Below, piece by piece: positions 6,001-12,000 of a DNA stretch of 64,000 bases (within the stretch, counting starts at the first letter, position 1; each line of letters starts with the position of its first letter). A program made the position numbers. Source of the stretch: Raja brachyura (taxonomy: Eukaryota); NCBI GenBank assembly GCA_963514005.1, contig OY740821.1, forward strand, positions 13,082,001-13,146,000. The letters are read 5' to 3'.

Positions 6001-9000
6001 ACTATTTGGTGCAATTACCCCCTTGTGCTACAAAGTTCTCTTTGTTCATTAACAGTGACCAGTGGCAATTCTCCAGCTGTATAATAAGCAATGTACCATT
6101 GGAATCAATAGTCCAAAGATGTAGTCCGTAAAAGGCAATGGTTTTTGCACTCCCAGTTTTTTTGTTTTGCCCAGTCTGCCTCCTTCCCAAATATCTGACA
6201 GGTGCAATATTAAAACTGCATGTGCTGCAAGGGACAGTACCATTGCCTGGTTATTATCAACGACCAGGGGATACTTCCATTTGAGAGACCGAGGTTCCTC
6301 TTGCTTTGAAGGAACAGCGTCAAACAGTTTCTGCTGGAAAGGCACGGCATTAAACCACCCCTCCCTCCTTTATACTGGACATCAACAGCAGGAGATTGGA
6401 GTGTTACATTCTGTGTGTGTGTATTTATCATGACTCTTGGATACAAATTGGATGACACACACACACATACAAAGGCATTAGTAAACCAGTCATTTCCTCT
6501 AGTTAGATTGTCAGTCTTCTGACTATGAGATCAAGAGTCACACATTCTCACCGTATCCCCACCCTCCCCTCACCTTCCAAAGTTCAAATATAAACCCTTT
6601 GCTTGTTGTTGAGTTGCCAGGTATCTAGATAGAACCCTGAAGGTGATCCTCTATGTCCTTTTTATTTCTGACTTTGCTGGCAGACTATTGTGCCAGTAGT
6701 CTGGATTATCAAAGGCATGGATGTCAGCCTCAGTAATAAACACCGTACTGTCATCCAGGTATTCTGGGTTCTGCACAATGCTCACACAGCCATTGAGGTA
6801 GGCTCGTTTGTTCATGTACTCGTATTCCTGGTTATCACTTGGTTTTGAGTCCGATTCCTTCCGATTCCCAGTTGACTGGGTAGTATTCACATCACCGGCT
6901 TTACTGATTAAGGGATCTGCATCGTTGGCAGGTTTCAGGTCCTCTGTAAGCAAAGCACAAAGACTTGTAATTCACTGGAAAATAACTAAATGTCTTTTAT
7001 CTTCCTTGCTTCTTAGATGCATGTCTGACATGTATTTGAACAGACACACACACCTCTCCTCTGGTCATTTCCTAGCCTGGTGCAAAACAAATAACAGAAA
7101 AGACTATGGATTGAGACAGGACTTGCCTCATCTTTAGGTCTCTACTCGATCAGACATAATTGCATTTACCCCTTGAACCATTAGGTGGAACTACAATGCC
7201 GTACAATTATTGTATCAAGGATACTTACTGGCAAGAGAGTGTGAGTTACGATTAAATGATAGAACAAGTTTGTGCTTGTATTAATATTTGACCCCACTCT
7301 GCAGGCACTTTACAGCCAATGAATTCCTGCCGCAGCGCAACTATTGCAGGCAAATACAACAGCCAATTATGCACTGCATAATCCCACAATTAAGAAATTA
7401 AATGAATAGCCAGTTAACCTGTTCTTGGTGTGGTTTCCCAAGATATAAATTATGTCTTGCTCTTCTAATAGCAGCATCCGATCTTTAGCACTCATCAGAA
7501 TAAACATACAAGGCTTTGATTTAATTTTCTGATCTGATAAGACACTTATCCAAAGAGCACTCGGTCACTACTCAAGTACCAGAATATATTTATTGCTCAC
7601 AGTTTCCCACAAATCTACTGACTCCATAGCTACCAAGACTACACCTCCTCCCACCCTATCCCTGGTCAGGACACTATCCCTTTCTTCCAGTCGCTCTGTC
7701 TTTTCTGCATCTGTTCTCCAGAGGAAGCTTTCCATTCTAGAAAATCAGGAAATGAGGGTTCCCTCGCATGTGCTTGATGGAGCCCTCACCGGCATCTCCT
7801 CCATTTTCTGCACGCACCATCTTCCCCAAGTCCTCTTAGTCCTCACCTTTCACACTGCCAGCTTCCATATCCAGCACAGCATTCTTCAATATTTCTGCCA
7901 GCTGCATCCTGATCCCACCACTAGTCACATCTTCCCATCTCCAACCTTTATACTTTCCACAGGGACCACTCTCTCTGTGACTCCCTGGTTTCTATACTTC
8001 CTCCCTCACCACCATCCAGAGACCTAAATACCCCATCCGGGTTACACAGAGATTCACACAGACTTCCTCCAACCTCATCCATTGCATTTGTGCATCTAGT
8101 GCTTCCTGTGTGGCTACCTCTACATCGGTGAGCACTAGCGCTTGTCAGCTCTTGCCCCACCTTTCCTCGCGCCCCTTTGTACTGACTAAATGCCCTTGAC
8201 TCTTTCAAGCCAACCCAAAATATCAACAGTGAATTCCCTGAGAGTTACCTAACCCACTGATTTCCTCCAGCAGTTCAGTTGTTTGCTGCTGGATTAGACT
8301 GTCTAGATAGGTTATATCTTCAGATTGTAATTTAGACATGATAAATTACAAATTATACCAGATTTAATTAGGCAATTTAGTTTCTTCTTTTAGAAGTTTC
8401 ATATTTTCTAAATTCCTGTACAACTGCATTTCATTTTTATTTTTGTAATCAAACTCCAAGCAGAAGGTTCAAAGGGTGAATACGTTTCTTACCGGCGGTA
8501 GTGTTTTTTTGTTCTGGCATCACATAGCCATTAATGTCCACCTCTGCTTCATCAGATGGGGAAATCATCATGTTTGTGCCATTGGAGAAACGTGCACTGC
8601 TGTCTCGCGAGCGGTGGCCACGGAGCTGGAGTGTTCCATTCAAAGATATCTCTTCATACAGATCAATGGAGGATGCTGTACCTCGACCCTCCGATGACTC
8701 CGAGATAGTCCGCGTCGTAGATTCATTCCGTGTTCTCAGTGAGCGCTTAGATCCCAGGTCTCCATTCTTCATCCCAGTCTAATAAATGAACAGGGCACTT
8801 TGTTATATGTCACTGTAGCTGGTGTTGCACACATTCCTCTTATGTGGTATGGTTAAAGGACATTTTGTAAGAGGTAAATAATTACACCATGAGCACATGG
8901 TCACATTTTCATGTTTATTGTGTTTTTCACGATCTCCTTCAGGGCCTCAATGCTAGAGGAGGACCCTGACTGAGGAGATCAGTTTAGACCAGGGGTCGGC

Positions 9001-12000
9001 AACGTTGTTCTGCATAGGGGCCGGGACGCATGTCTGTGAGCGGATGGCGGGCCACATCTATCACGTGGGTACATATGGGTCCCGCCCCCATCCCGCCCCA
9101 GATGGCTGGCAGGCATCAAATCACGTGTTCACAGAAGGTAGACAAAAATGCTGAGGAAACTCAGCGGGTGAGGCAGCCTCATGCAATCCTTGCATTAGAT
9201 GGATTAGATTTGCATGTCTCACCCGCTGAGTTTCTCCAGCATTTTTGTCTACCTTCGATTTTTCCAGCATCTGCAGTTCTTTCTTAAACGTGTTCACAGA
9301 AGATGAGTGGCTTTGCGCAGGATGCGGTACAGCCAGAGCACTCGGCCACACTCGGGGTGGGTGCTCAGCCACGTTTGGGGCGGGCGCTCGGTGGGCCGGA
9401 TGGTTATGGGGGGCCGGATGATTTTGGGTTCGCATTCGGCCCGGGGGCCGGAGGTTGCCGACCCCTGGTTTAGACCTTACTTTTTAAAAATGTAGCATGT
9501 CACTGGATTTTCTTTCTCACCAATGCTCCATCATGCTCTTATTTTCTTTCTCACCTACAGTTCTCCCTACTACAGTCTGCTTGCACATCACCATAATTAC
9601 AGTTATTACCGGCACTAAAGTTCCACTTTATGCATATTAAGATCTCTTTCTGTATCCCTATTGCAGAAGTGAATGTATAAGGAGAAGTGTATGAAGTATC
9701 TGGGTGGAGTCACAAATTCTGGCTCAATTATTTCTCTATCTGAACCTAAAGAAGAATTGGATAGGTGACTGAACAGGAACTCTGTCTGCGATGACCAAAT
9801 TCCCGATGCACAGTTTTGAGCAAGAAACACTGCAACAAACTCGTTGCTGTTGAGACACTTCAGAATAGCATGTTGGTGTAGGGTGCAGTTTATCAAAGCT
9901 GCATAGATGCCAATCTGTAATCCAGCAAATACCCACAATTGAATGGATCCCTTCTGGTATTCCGTACTCGAGGTACATAAAATGAATTCAGTCATAAAAG
10001 TTAGACTTTTACATGGTGCGTGCTGCTTACAATATATATTTTTTAATATTAGTGAACAAATGCAATAACTGCACTAAAGATTCAAAGAATCGGGGCAAAG
10101 ATTATCCAAACTTGCCCTTTAAATACCAGGACTAAGAATATTCCAATTCTTTTTGAGACTATCTTTAATTGTTTCTGTGTACTATCCAAATAAAACACGA
10201 TATTTTTGCTGCTATCAGTGTCTCCAAATAGACTATCTTGTACCCACCTGCCGAGAGCCATCTTGACCAATCCCATTCATGGGCATGTACGCAGCTGGTA
10301 AACTGTTGCTCTGCAAAAGAGACACAAGCATTACATTTGGAAGGGCACCTAACACAAATTTTCTCCAGTTGATCAGGAGACCATTTGAGATATTAGCAAA
10401 CAAATGGTTTGAAATTTATCAGTTAATTAGTGCAGGAGAAATTGTGAAGTAAATTCTGTCAGGTTAATGTATTAGGAAAAAAAAAAATAGGTCGGGCAGC
10501 AACCCTGAAGAACATGGATAGGTGAAATTTCAAGTTGGGACTTCTTCAGACCGAGGTATATTTATATTTGAACTTTGGAAGGTGAGGGGAGGGTGGGGAT
10601 ACGGTGAGAATGTGTGACTCTTGATCTCATAGTCAGAAGACTGACAATCTAACTAGAGGAAATGACTAGTTTACTAATGCCTTTGTATGTGTGTGTGTCA
10701 TCCAATTTGTATCCAAGAGTCATGATAAATACACACACACAGAATGTAACACTCCAATCTCCTGCTGTTGATGTCCAGTATAAAGGAGGGAGGGGTGGTT
10801 TAATGCCGTGCCTTTCCAGCAGAAACTGTTTGACGCTGTTCCTTCAAAGCAAGAGGAACCTCGGTCTCTCAAATGGAAGTATCCCCTGGTCGTTGATAAT
10901 AACCAGGCAATGGTACTGTCCCTTGCAGCACATGCAGTTTTAATATTGCACCTGTCAGATATTTGGGAAGGAGGCAGACTGGGCAAAACAAAAAAACTGG
11001 GAGTGCAAAAACCATTGCCTTTTACGGACTACATCTTTGGACTATTGATTCCAATGGTACATTGCTTATTATACAGCTGGAGAATTGCCACTGGTCACTG
11101 TTAATGAACAAAGAGAACTTTGTAGCACAAAGGGGTAATTGCACCAAATCAGCAGAGGTATTCAGATCATACCAAAAGCGGAACCCTGGCTGATATTTTT
11201 TCTCTCCCTTGCTTAGGAGCGCCAAGCCATTACTACTCTCCCAACTAAGATCATCCAACTGGAAAGTCAAATTTAGGATTTTCCTGGTCGATAACAAATT
11301 GATCATTTACCCCACTAAACCATGAGGAAATCAGCTAATTCTCTCAACATGTCAGGAGAAATTTGCTTACAACTCTGCACTCTCTCAGCTAGCTGGTTGA
11401 ATCAAAGGATATTGTGAATGGGCAATAAAAGCTTGGTCTTGCCAGTGACGTCTGCGCATCACACAAACTGATTGCTTTGTGCAATCAACACCTAGGAAAA
11501 ACGGAAGGGAACTAAGTCCCCCCAAATAATCTGCTCTTGCCACAAATCCCTAGATTAATATTCGCCGATTTCATACCCTGGTTGATTCAATCCTCAGCCG
11601 TACTACACCAGATTGTGGGTTATCCAGTGTGGTCTCCATCAAATCTTCATCCGGATCATCACAATCCACAAGGTCTTCCTCATATTCATGCAGGGTCCTT
11701 TGCTCACTAACGTATGTATTGTTAGCCCTGTCATCGCCCTAAGGAAAGATACGGAATGGTTAGCGATACAGCTGGCAGCCTATCAACAAAACAGGGACAT
11801 CCTCAAGAAGGCAATGATACTGTTAAATCATCAGAATATAGGCAAACCTGATAAAATGTTCCATCTTAGTTGCGGTATAATGCAAAGGAGGTCCGTGGCA
11901 AATCTACCCAAATCACTACTGTGATTCGGAGCAGGATATCCAATAGAGAATGGTGAGAATGTGGCGCTTGCTATCATTGAGTGGTTGTGGTAAATGACAT

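What the first reader, a model, noticed from the sequence alone, without database searches (positions are those of the whole stretch)
6004..11149. Near-identical 590-bp inverted copy of the gene's own 3'UTR in intron 25, bracketing the last three exons
Seen: 6004-6594 (begins about 56 nt after the stop codon) and 10561-11149 are reverse complements. I found two substitutions and one (AC) unit difference. The sequence is not a recognisable transposon and shows no polyA tail or TSD. Inference: the pre-mRNA could fold into a ~590-bp duplex looping out exons 26-28, which hold both YxxM and both NPxY motifs. Possible outcomes are ADAR editing of the UTR, endo-siRNAs, exon 26-27 back-splicing or altered exon 26 inclusion. 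At DNA level the repeats could mediate a ~4-kb inversion that detaches the signalling tail.
Basis: partly seen in the sequence, partly recalled or inferred. Interest (0 to 1): 0.75.

Follow-up and report, generated by a model that had tools for sequence, protein, structure and literature searches.

The report
Inverted 3'UTR copy inside shark/ray ERBB3
A cartilaginous-fish ERBB3 gene carries a nearly exact, flipped 590-base copy of part of its own 3' untranslated region in its 25th intron, which is real in the sequence and could form double-stranded RNA or allow an inversion, but nothing yet shows it does anything.

Summary
Window 6004-6594 and 10561-11149 are reverse complements, with 2 substitutions and one AC unit of difference (99.3 %). 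They are the longest and most identical of 114 repeat pairs in the window, and there is no third copy.

The host gene, on the minus strand, is an elasmobranch ERBB3-type receptor and is not human. One arm lies in intron 25. The other starts 56 nt after the stop codon, upstream of the first canonical poly(A) signals.

The arms show no transposon, SINE, retrocopy, coding or RNA-family hallmarks. Only the intron copy is flanked by a shared 7-mer, with a null chance of 1.4 %. This suggests a DNA-level insertion of a UTR fragment into intron 25.

Folding gives a 588-bp duplex that loops out exons 26-28.

Editing, small RNAs, back-splicing and inversion remain untested inferences. After splicing only one arm stays in the mRNA. 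The back-splicing geometry is atypical, because the downstream arm is exonic.

Long, near-perfect inverted duplicates in pre-mRNAs are a known class. Verdict: real, a new member of a known kind, of modest interest. An assembly artefact cannot be excluded without reads.

The parts
6004..6594 (-). Arm A: 591-nt segment of the presumptive 3'UTR of the ERBB3-type gene (sense in the mRNA), starting 56 nt after the stop codon
   Evidence: repeat; no AATAAA/ATTAAA between the stop and 5405, so the arm lies upstream of the first canonical poly(A) signal; one TATAAA lies inside the arm at 6374.
10561..11149 (-). Arm B: 589-nt inverted copy inside intron 25. In the pre-mRNA it is antisense to arm A. It lies 427 nt after the exon-25 donor and 250 nt before the exon-26 acceptor.
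6595..10560 (-). 3966-nt spacer looped out by arm pairing: 3' part of intron 25, exon 26, intron 26, exon 27, intron 27, the coding part of exon 28 and the first 56 nt of the UTR
11577..11738 (-). Exon 25 (GDDRANN...RIESTR); donor GT at 11576-11575
10248..10310 (-). Exon 26, 63 nt, SNSLPAAYMPMNGIGQDGSRQ (holds YMPM)
8493..8778 (-). Exon 27, 286 nt; no YxxM or NPxY
6651..6943 (-). Coding part of exon 28 with stop TAG at 6653-6651; holds YEYM, NPEY and NPDY; ends ...DNPDYWHNSLPAKSEIKRT*
10553..10559 (+). GAGGTAT, left member of a possible 7-bp target-site duplication at the intron copy, followed by 1 filler base (10560)
   Evidence: a shared word of 7 or more occurs in 1.4 % of 20000 random 589-nt placements in the window
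11155..11161 (+). GAGGTAT, right member of the possible target-site duplication, preceded by 5 filler bases (11150-11154)
5400..5405 (-). First canonical AATAAA after the stop (1246 nt after it); a second at 5257-5252

Best explanation
A real, lineage-specific, DNA-level inverted duplication inside an elasmobranch ERBB3-type gene. A fragment of about 590 bp from the 3'UTR region was copied and inserted in reverse orientation 4 kb upstream, into intron 25. The likely route is capture or templated synthesis at a staggered break, leaving a 7-bp target duplication and a few filler bases. It is not a transposon copy or a retrocopy. It is most probably neutral or slightly deleterious baggage, not a selected device. 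Two consequences are predicted. First, in transcripts where intron 25 is still present when the UTR is transcribed about 5 kb later, the arms form a duplex of about 588 bp. That duplex is a prime substrate for nuclear ADAR hyper-editing of both arms, so the mRNA's UTR could carry clustered A-to-G changes. Second, at the DNA level the arms are a substrate for gene conversion and for inversion of the 4-kb spacer by non-allelic homologous recombination; an inversion would detach exons 26-28. Shown here: the repeat, its position in the gene, its lack of mobile-element hallmarks, and its pairing potential. Inferred: the direction and mechanism of the duplication, and every RNA- and DNA-level consequence.
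For: **Repeat and uniqueness**
- The repeat is exact at both ends.
- There are only two copies in 64 kb, even with blastn word size 9 and E up to 1.
- It is the longest and most identical of 114 repeat pairs. The other 59 pairs in the 60 rows that one search printed are 77-100 % identical and much shorter, the next longest being 416 columns.

**Host gene**
- Exon-28 peptide is 83 % identical to Hypanus sabinus erbB-3a and 82 % to a Cetorhinus maximus protein.
- 27 exon blocks were mapped.
- ErbB domains were found exon by exon: 8 of 12 exon pieces hit Recep_L, Furin-like, GF_recep_IV or PK_Tyr_Ser-Thr.
- The HRN motif is present.

**No mobile-element hallmarks**
- No terminal inverted repeats.
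- No tRNA-like head.
- No Pfam hit in 4 of 4 arm reading frames.
- No Rfam hit above threshold.
- No poly(A) at either end.

**Direction of the duplication**
- Flanks of the intron copy share GAGGTAT (null 1.4 %). Flanks of the UTR copy share only a 4-mer.

**Not a typical false duplication**
- No N anywhere in the window. Ko et al. list gaps between the copies as a main feature of false duplications (passages).

**Pairing**
-. Both substitutions give G.U wobbles in the RNA duplex.

**Precedent**
- Hyper-editing clusters in long, nearly perfect dsRNA formed by neighbouring inverted copies. It was detected in elephant shark brain, with 200,171 sites (Porath 2017, PMC5625713, passages).
- Inversions arise by NAHR between inverted repeats (Aguado 2014, PMC3961182, passages).
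Against: **No external data**
- No reads, RNA data, population data or sister-species DNA could be consulted.
- So reality of both copies, genome-wide copy number, transcript ends and all consequences are unverified.

**Weak points in the duplication model**
- The 7-mer flank match has a 1.4 % chance expectation, was noticed after looking, and needs 1 + 5 filler bases to fit.
- The arms differ by 0.34 %. This is about the allelic diversity reported for a shark (pi = 0.002), so divergence alone cannot separate paralogues from mis-placed haplotypes.
- The strand-skew test for the native orientation was uninformative.

**Limits on the consequences**
- Duplex formation competes with removal of intron 25, and the mature mRNA keeps one arm only.
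- Long, near-perfect inverted duplicates are depleted even in pre-mRNAs. That argues either for a cost or for low expression.
Confidence: 0.55

Rival explanations
1. Assembly artefact: only one copy exists, and a haplotype variant or chimeric read placed a second, flipped copy in intron 25.
For: The arms differ by 2 substitutions and one microsatellite unit. This is about the level of allelic diversity reported in a shark (pi 0.002). False duplications affect 0.3-16 % of the vertebrate assemblies examined by Ko et al. (passages).
Against: There is no N in the 64-kb window, so no gap between or beside the copies; gaps between copies are a listed hallmark of false duplications. Both arms are embedded in unique sequence on both sides with sharp ends. 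The intron copy is inverted, internal to a contig, and flanked by a 7-mer duplication, which an assembler would not create. Read depth could not be tested.
Confidence: 0.12
2. Both arms are independent insertions of a young, low-copy mobile or dispersed repeat that happens to sit twice in this gene in opposite orientation.
For: Both copies have identical ends, as copies of an element with defined termini would. The introns of this gene are full of interspersed repeats (114 pairs). Genome-wide copy number could not be tested.
Against: There is no third copy, even a diverged one, in 64 kb, while other families have 3-6 copies there. The arms have no terminal inverted repeats, tRNA head, poly(A), coding remnant or Rfam family. 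Only one of the two copies has a flank duplication. Two insertions 4 kb apart at 99.3 % identity would need a very active family.
Confidence: 0.12
3. An older duplication whose arms are kept nearly identical by gene conversion. The high identity then does not date it, and it may be shared by related species.
For: Inverted repeats a few kb apart are known to exchange sequence, and gene-conversion tracts of a few hundred bp are usual (passage in the Discussion of PMC3961182). The filler bases around the flank 7-mer would fit an older junction. With a shark mutation rate of 7e-10 per site per generation, even without conversion 2/589 differences correspond to about 2.4 million generations (my arithmetic).
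Against: There is no direct sign of conversion, because three differences are too few to show tracts. No sister-species data were available.
Confidence: 0.15
4. A selected regulatory device. Pairing of intron 25 with the UTR might tune ERBB3 output through editing, nuclear retention of unspliced RNA, small RNAs or a circular exon 26-27 RNA. Alternatively, a recurrent inversion might switch the signalling tail off.
For: The duplex is thermodynamically dominant and brackets exactly the exons holding the docking motifs. Both substitutions preserve pairing as G.U. About 400 nt of complementarity sufficed for Sry circularisation, and 30-40 nt sufficed in minigenes.
Against: Two G.U-preserving transitions are expected by chance about one time in four, given two transitions. 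There is no conservation evidence. The downstream arm is in the terminal exon and not in a flanking intron. Stronger hairpins do not reliably raise circularisation. Long perfect inverted duplicates are under purifying selection.
Confidence: 0.06

Closest known systems
Long, nearly perfect inverted duplicated sequences (IDS) in pre-mRNAs (Barak et al. 2020, PMC7006430; abstract and passages read)
   Same: More than 300 bp and more than 96 % identity, in reverse orientation within one pre-mRNA. One arm is exonic and one intronic, so the duplex exists only before splicing. The paper notes that exonic repeats paired with intronic ones pose no dsRNA threat at the mRNA level.
   Different: Most such structures are pairs of repetitive elements (707 of 1260 Mbp in pre-mRNAs). 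This one is a copy of the gene's own unique UTR sequence, at 99.3 % identity.
ADAR hyper-editing substrates formed by neighbouring inverted repeats (Porath et al. 2017, PMC5625713; passages read)
   Same: A long, nearly perfect intramolecular duplex. The process was shown in a cartilaginous fish, the elephant shark.
   Different: Editing at this locus was not observed. The arms are 4 kb apart and pairing competes with splicing of intron 25.
Inverted repeats that promote exon circularisation: mouse Sry with flanking repeats over 15 kb, and Alu pairs at ZKSCAN1, HIPK3 and EPHB4 (Liang and Wilusz 2014, PMC4201285; passages read)
   Same: Complementary arms bracket exons that have both an acceptor (10310) and a donor (8493). 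Like Sry, the arms are a duplication of local unique sequence and not a dispersed element.
   Different: The downstream arm lies in the last exon's UTR, 1899 nt beyond the exon-27 donor, and not in the flanking intron. No circular RNA was observed.
Inversions mediated by inverted repeats through non-allelic homologous recombination (Aguado et al. 2014, PMC3961182; passages read)
   Same: Two highly identical inverted copies flank a unique segment inside one locus.
   Different: The human cases studied span 5.1-226 kb. Here the arms are only 0.59 kb, the spacer is 4 kb, and no second orientation has been seen.
Replication-based template switching and microhomology-mediated break-induced replication as a source of local inverted duplications (PMC2621351, PMC9199198; search listing only)
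   Same: A short inverted copy placed a few kb from its source, with filler bases at the junctions.
   Different: No microhomology between source and target was seen at either junction. The 7-bp flank duplication fits fill-in of a staggered break better.

Membership tests
ERBB3-type receptor (host gene) | ErbB ectodomain and kinase architecture (Recep_L, Furin-like, GF_recep_IV, tyrosine kinase) | tested here: met
   Pfam scan exon by exon: 8 of 12 exon pieces hit these families, 4 had no hit. Exons were never joined.
ERBB3-type receptor (host gene) | Asn in place of the catalytic Asp (HRN instead of HRD); the definition is recalled and comes from no call | tested here: met
   [13 protein letters not shown] in the exon at 19609-19430
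ERBB3-type receptor (host gene) | C-terminal tail similar to proteins named erbB-3 | tested here: met
   Exon 28: 83 % identity to 'erbB-3a isoform X3' of Hypanus sabinus. Three other hits are named 'erbB-4-like' by their source, so the naming is mixed (6 proteins at E <= 0.001 among 50 candidates).
Transposable element | Terminal inverted repeats, LTRs or a tRNA-derived head | tested here: not met
   Only internal (TG)n/(CA)n and a 10-nt pair were found, none at the termini. No tRNA-like sequence.
Transposable element | Target-site duplication at each copy | tested here: inconclusive
   A 7-mer flanks the intron copy (null 1.4 %); only a 4-mer flanks the UTR copy.
Transposable element | Many copies, including diverged ones | tested here: not met
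   2 of 2 hits in the 64-kb window are the arms themselves. The rest of the genome is not testable with these tools.
Processed retrocopy | Poly(A) tail and a 3' end at the transcript's poly(A) site | tested here: not met
   No A or T run at either junction. The copied segment ends about 600 nt upstream of the first AATAAA.
Long near-perfect inverted duplicate in a pre-mRNA (Barak 2020) | >300 bp, >96 % identity, opposite orientation, both within first to last exon | tested here: met
   Membership depends on the UTR reaching at least 6004, which is inferred from poly(A) signals and not from RNA.
circRNA-promoting flanking intronic repeats | Complementary arms in the introns on both sides of the circularised exons | tested here: not met
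   The upstream arm is in intron 25; the downstream arm is in the terminal exon.
False (assembly) duplication | Gap between the copies; half or low read depth | tested here: not met
   No N in the window. Read depth is not testable with these tools.
miR-130 precursor | Rfam gathering score and a stable hairpin | tested here: not met
   22.8 bits against a gathering score of 40.6. Fold z-score 0.07; 106 of 200 shuffles fold at least as well.

The most novel reading that the evidence does not exclude
The inverted UTR copy is a selected self-recognition module. Antisense UTR sequence carried in intron 25 pairs with the gene's own 3'UTR, either in cis before splicing or in trans from the excised or retained intron. 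This would gate output of the PI3K-docking tail of ERBB3 through hyper-editing, nuclear retention or small RNAs, through a circular exon 26-27 RNA, or through a recurrent 4-kb inversion that yields tail-less alleles.
Probability: 0.06. Interest if true: 0.7.

Novelty: new member of a known kind. Interest (0 to 1): 0.3.

Why it matters
If both copies are real, this is a clean natural example of a long, perfect duplex built from unique sequence and not from repeats. It joins an intron to the 3'UTR of a signalling receptor in a slowly evolving vertebrate lineage.

That makes it a convenient test case for three questions:
- How far does intron-to-UTR pairing compete with splicing?
- How heavily does ADAR edit such a duplex in cartilaginous fish?
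- Do sub-kilobase inverted repeats drive inversions that would remove a receptor's docking tail?

It does not by itself change what is known about any of these processes.

Tried and rejected
- **miR-130 precursor in the arms.** The Rfam match is below threshold (22.8 bits against 40.6; E 0.66 in the 8-kb search). The fold is no better than shuffles (z 0.07). Rejected as chance.
- **Coding or transposase remnant in the arm.** 0 of 4 stop-to-stop frames (82-106 aa) hit Pfam at E up to 1.
- **SINE or tRNA origin.** None found.
- **Terminal inverted repeats.** None found.
- **Strand-skew test for which arm sits in its native orientation.** The UTR arm has GC skew +0.135 and the intron arm -0.124, against a gene-wide +0.014 with sd 0.173 over 91 tiles. 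This is uninformative.
- **A gene downstream (1-5300) that might overlap the UTR.** 31 open frames of 55 aa or more were listed. I scanned 3 of the 31, and none hit Pfam at curated level.
- **Literature on an ERBB3 UTR or intron inverted repeat.** One search returned 92 papers holding at least 3 of 4 terms. None of the 8 listed dealt with it. This is not a claim that nothing is in print.
- A frame slip was corrected. Term-format errors were corrected.
- **Not done.**
Genome-wide copy number and orthologous loci therefore stayed unchecked.
  - Supplementary tables of Barak 2020 and Porath 2017, which may give per-species counts, could not be seen.

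
Full report
**Observation.** The inverted repeat is in the sequence as described.
- The repeat finder reports 6004-6465 / 10688-11149 (462 nt, 100 % complementary) and 6457-6594 / 10561-10698 (138 nt, 99 %).
- blastn of the two regions with 300-nt flanks gives one alignment of 591 columns: 99.32 % identity, 2 mismatches, 1 gap, bit score 1068, E 0.0. There is no similarity beyond the ends.
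- A global alignment places the differences at 6022 (C against T), 6487 (C against T) and one extra AC at 6455-6456 in the UTR copy.
- Searching arm A against the whole window (word size 9, E up to 1) finds only the two arms.
- In a self-comparison of the window, this pair is the longest and most identical of 114 repeat pairs. The next pairs are 416 columns at 93 % and 322 columns at 97 %, and they belong to multi-copy families.
- The window has no N.

**Host gene.** I do not take the window for human.
- The last coding exon (6943-6651, minus strand) ends ...AFDNPDYWHNSLPAKSEIKRT*. Its best relatives among 6 significant hits are elasmobranch and chimaera receptors. These are 83 % to 'erbB-3a isoform X3' of Hypanus sabinus and 82 % to a Cetorhinus maximus protein that its source names 'erbB-4-like'.
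- tblastn of the Cetorhinus protein against the window maps 27 exon blocks from 60328 down to 6654, covering residues 23-1251. Residues 1-22 were not found.
- Pfam, run exon by exon, finds Recep_L_domain, Furin-like, GF_recep_IV and PK_Tyr_Ser-Thr in 8 of 12 exon pieces.
- The kinase exon reads HRN where active kinases have HRD. That this marks ERBB3 is recalled knowledge.

**Anatomy around the repeat.**

| Feature | Coordinates (minus strand) |
|---|---|
| Exon 25 | 11738-11577, donor GT at 11576-11575 |
| Exon 26 | 10310-10248 |
| Exon 27 | 8778-8493 |
| Exon 28 | starts at 6943; stop at 6653-6651 |
| Intron 25 | 1266 nt |

- Arm B fills 589 nt of intron 25, lying 427 nt after the donor and 250 nt before the acceptor.
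- Arm A starts 56 nt after the stop.
- There is no AATAAA or ATTAAA between the stop and 5405. AATAAA occurs at 5405 and 5257, and one TATAAA lies inside the arm at 6374. So the arm is most likely inside a 3'UTR of about 1.3-1.4 kb. This is inferred from signals and not from RNA.
None occurs in exons 24, 25 or 27. No Y or N lies close enough to an exon end to hide a junction-spanning motif.

**What the repeated unit is.**
- It carries no terminal inverted repeats; the only internal pairs are a (TG)n/(CA)n pair and a 10-mer.
- It has no tRNA-like head, no A or T run at either end, and no Pfam match in 4 of 4 open frames.
- It has no Rfam match at gathering level. The only hit is mir-130 at 22.8 bits against 40.6, and that stretch folds no better than shuffles.
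- The copied segment ends about 600 nt before the first AATAAA, so it is not the 3' end of the mRNA. This argues against a retrocopy.
- The flanks of the intron copy share the 7-mer GAGGTAT (10553-10559 and 11155-11161), separated from the arm by 1 and 5 bases. In 20000 random placements of a 589-nt segment in this window, 1.4 % share a word of 7 or more. The flanks of the UTR copy share only 4 bases.
- I read this as modest evidence that the intron copy is the derived one, inserted at a staggered break with short filler. The match was noticed after inspection, so the 1.4 % is not a clean probability.
- A strand-skew test of orientation was uninformative.

**Age.** Two substitutions in 589 sites is 0.34 %. 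The only direct shark mutation rate I could read is 7e-10 per site per generation in the epaulette shark (95 % CI 1.4-14.1e-10; PMC10587355, passages). With that rate, d/2u is about 2.4 million generations (my arithmetic), with a wide Poisson range for two events. So 'near-identical' need not mean very recent in this lineage, and the copy could be shared by related species. Gene conversion between the arms would blur the estimate further. The same paper gives pi = 0.002, which is close to the arm divergence, so divergence cannot exclude a mis-placed haplotype.

**RNA-level consequences (inferred).**
- Cofolding the two arms as they occur in the pre-mRNA gives 588 intermolecular pairs and no intramolecular ones. 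The energy is -1163 kcal/mol, against -148 and -163 for the arms folded alone.
- In the minimum-energy fold of the whole 5251-nt stretch, 588 of 589 intron-arm bases pair with the UTR arm.
- Both substitutions become G.U pairs. Given two transitions, that happens by chance about one time in four.
- The duplex can exist only while intron 25 is unspliced. The UTR arm is finished about 5.1 kb after the intron arm begins, so pairing competes with splicing, and the mature mRNA keeps one arm.
- The best-supported outcome is nuclear ADAR hyper-editing. [quoted passage not shown]
- Barak et al. counted 54,479 inverted duplicates that are both over 300 bp and over 96 % identical in the pre-mRNAs of 49 species. 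They counted only 4 in mRNAs. They find such structures depleted and weakly expressed, and they point out that exon-intron pairs pose no dsRNA threat after splicing. The present case belongs to that class and differs in being built from unique sequence.

**Back-splicing and small RNAs.**
- Liang and Wilusz found that 30-40 nt of intronic complementarity suffice. [quoted passage not shown] About 400 nt were reported as needed at Sry, whose arms are also a local duplication.
- Here exons 26-27 have the needed acceptor and donor, but the downstream arm lies in the terminal exon, 1899 nt past the donor. A circle is possible but the geometry is atypical.
- A more classical candidate sits elsewhere in the same gene (see the passing notes).
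- Endo-siRNAs would need cytoplasmic or nuclear dicing of an unspliced transcript. I rate this as unlikely, on general knowledge only.

**DNA-level consequences (inferred).** Inverted repeats mediate inversions by non-allelic homologous recombination. At 0.59 kb the arms are short compared with the studied human cases, and no second orientation can be seen in one assembly.

**Rivals.**
- *Assembly artefact (0.12).* The inverted, gap-free, contig-internal position and the flank duplication argue against it. Gaps between copies are a listed hallmark of false duplications. Read depth could not be checked.
- *Two insertions of a dispersed repeat (0.12).* The lack of hallmarks and of any third copy argues against it, but only 64 kb could be searched.
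- *An older duplication homogenised by conversion (0.15).* This is compatible with the main reading.
- *A selected regulatory device (0.06).*

**Verdict.** It is a new member of a known kind. Interest 0.3.

**Unchecked.** Supplementary files of the papers were not seen.

Noticed in passing
This is the classical geometry for repeat-assisted back-splicing of a single exon, more so than the finding's own pair. Further copies of the family lie at 39814-40133, 21310-21597 and 53169-53389.
   Followed up: partly
window 8982-9475 (intron 26): An element of about 494 bp is bounded by 22-nt terminal inverted repeats (2 mismatches; 0 of 100 shuffles give 2 matches) and has a nested 56-nt-arm palindrome at 9134-9256. 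The inner part has relatives at 18086-18453, 35460-35593 and elsewhere in the window, so it is a miniature inverted-repeat-type element family.
   Followed up: partly
window 6142-6231 (+) and 10922-11011 (-): There is a sub-threshold Rfam match to the mir-130 precursor (22.8 bits, gathering 40.6). The stretch does not fold better than shuffles. On the mRNA strand of the UTR arm, this means a stretch with extended complementarity to a miR-130-like sequence. Probably chance.
   Followed up: yes
window 3712-4557 (-): A 281-aa stop-to-stop open frame lies about 2-3 kb beyond the ERBB3 stop and has no Pfam match at E up to 0.1. It is unusually long for non-coding sequence of about 40 % G+C. Not explained.
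   Followed up: partly
window 18086-18413: A 328-nt region is its own reverse complement at 79 % (a palindromic repeat) in the intron between the exon blocks at 19609 and 17061. Related pieces lie at 57492-57667, 63698-63882 and 43595-43681.
   Followed up: no
window 60328 upward: The first 22 residues (signal peptide exon) of the receptor were not located by tblastn. The first exon may lie in 60400-64000 in diverged form, or outside the window.
   Followed up: no
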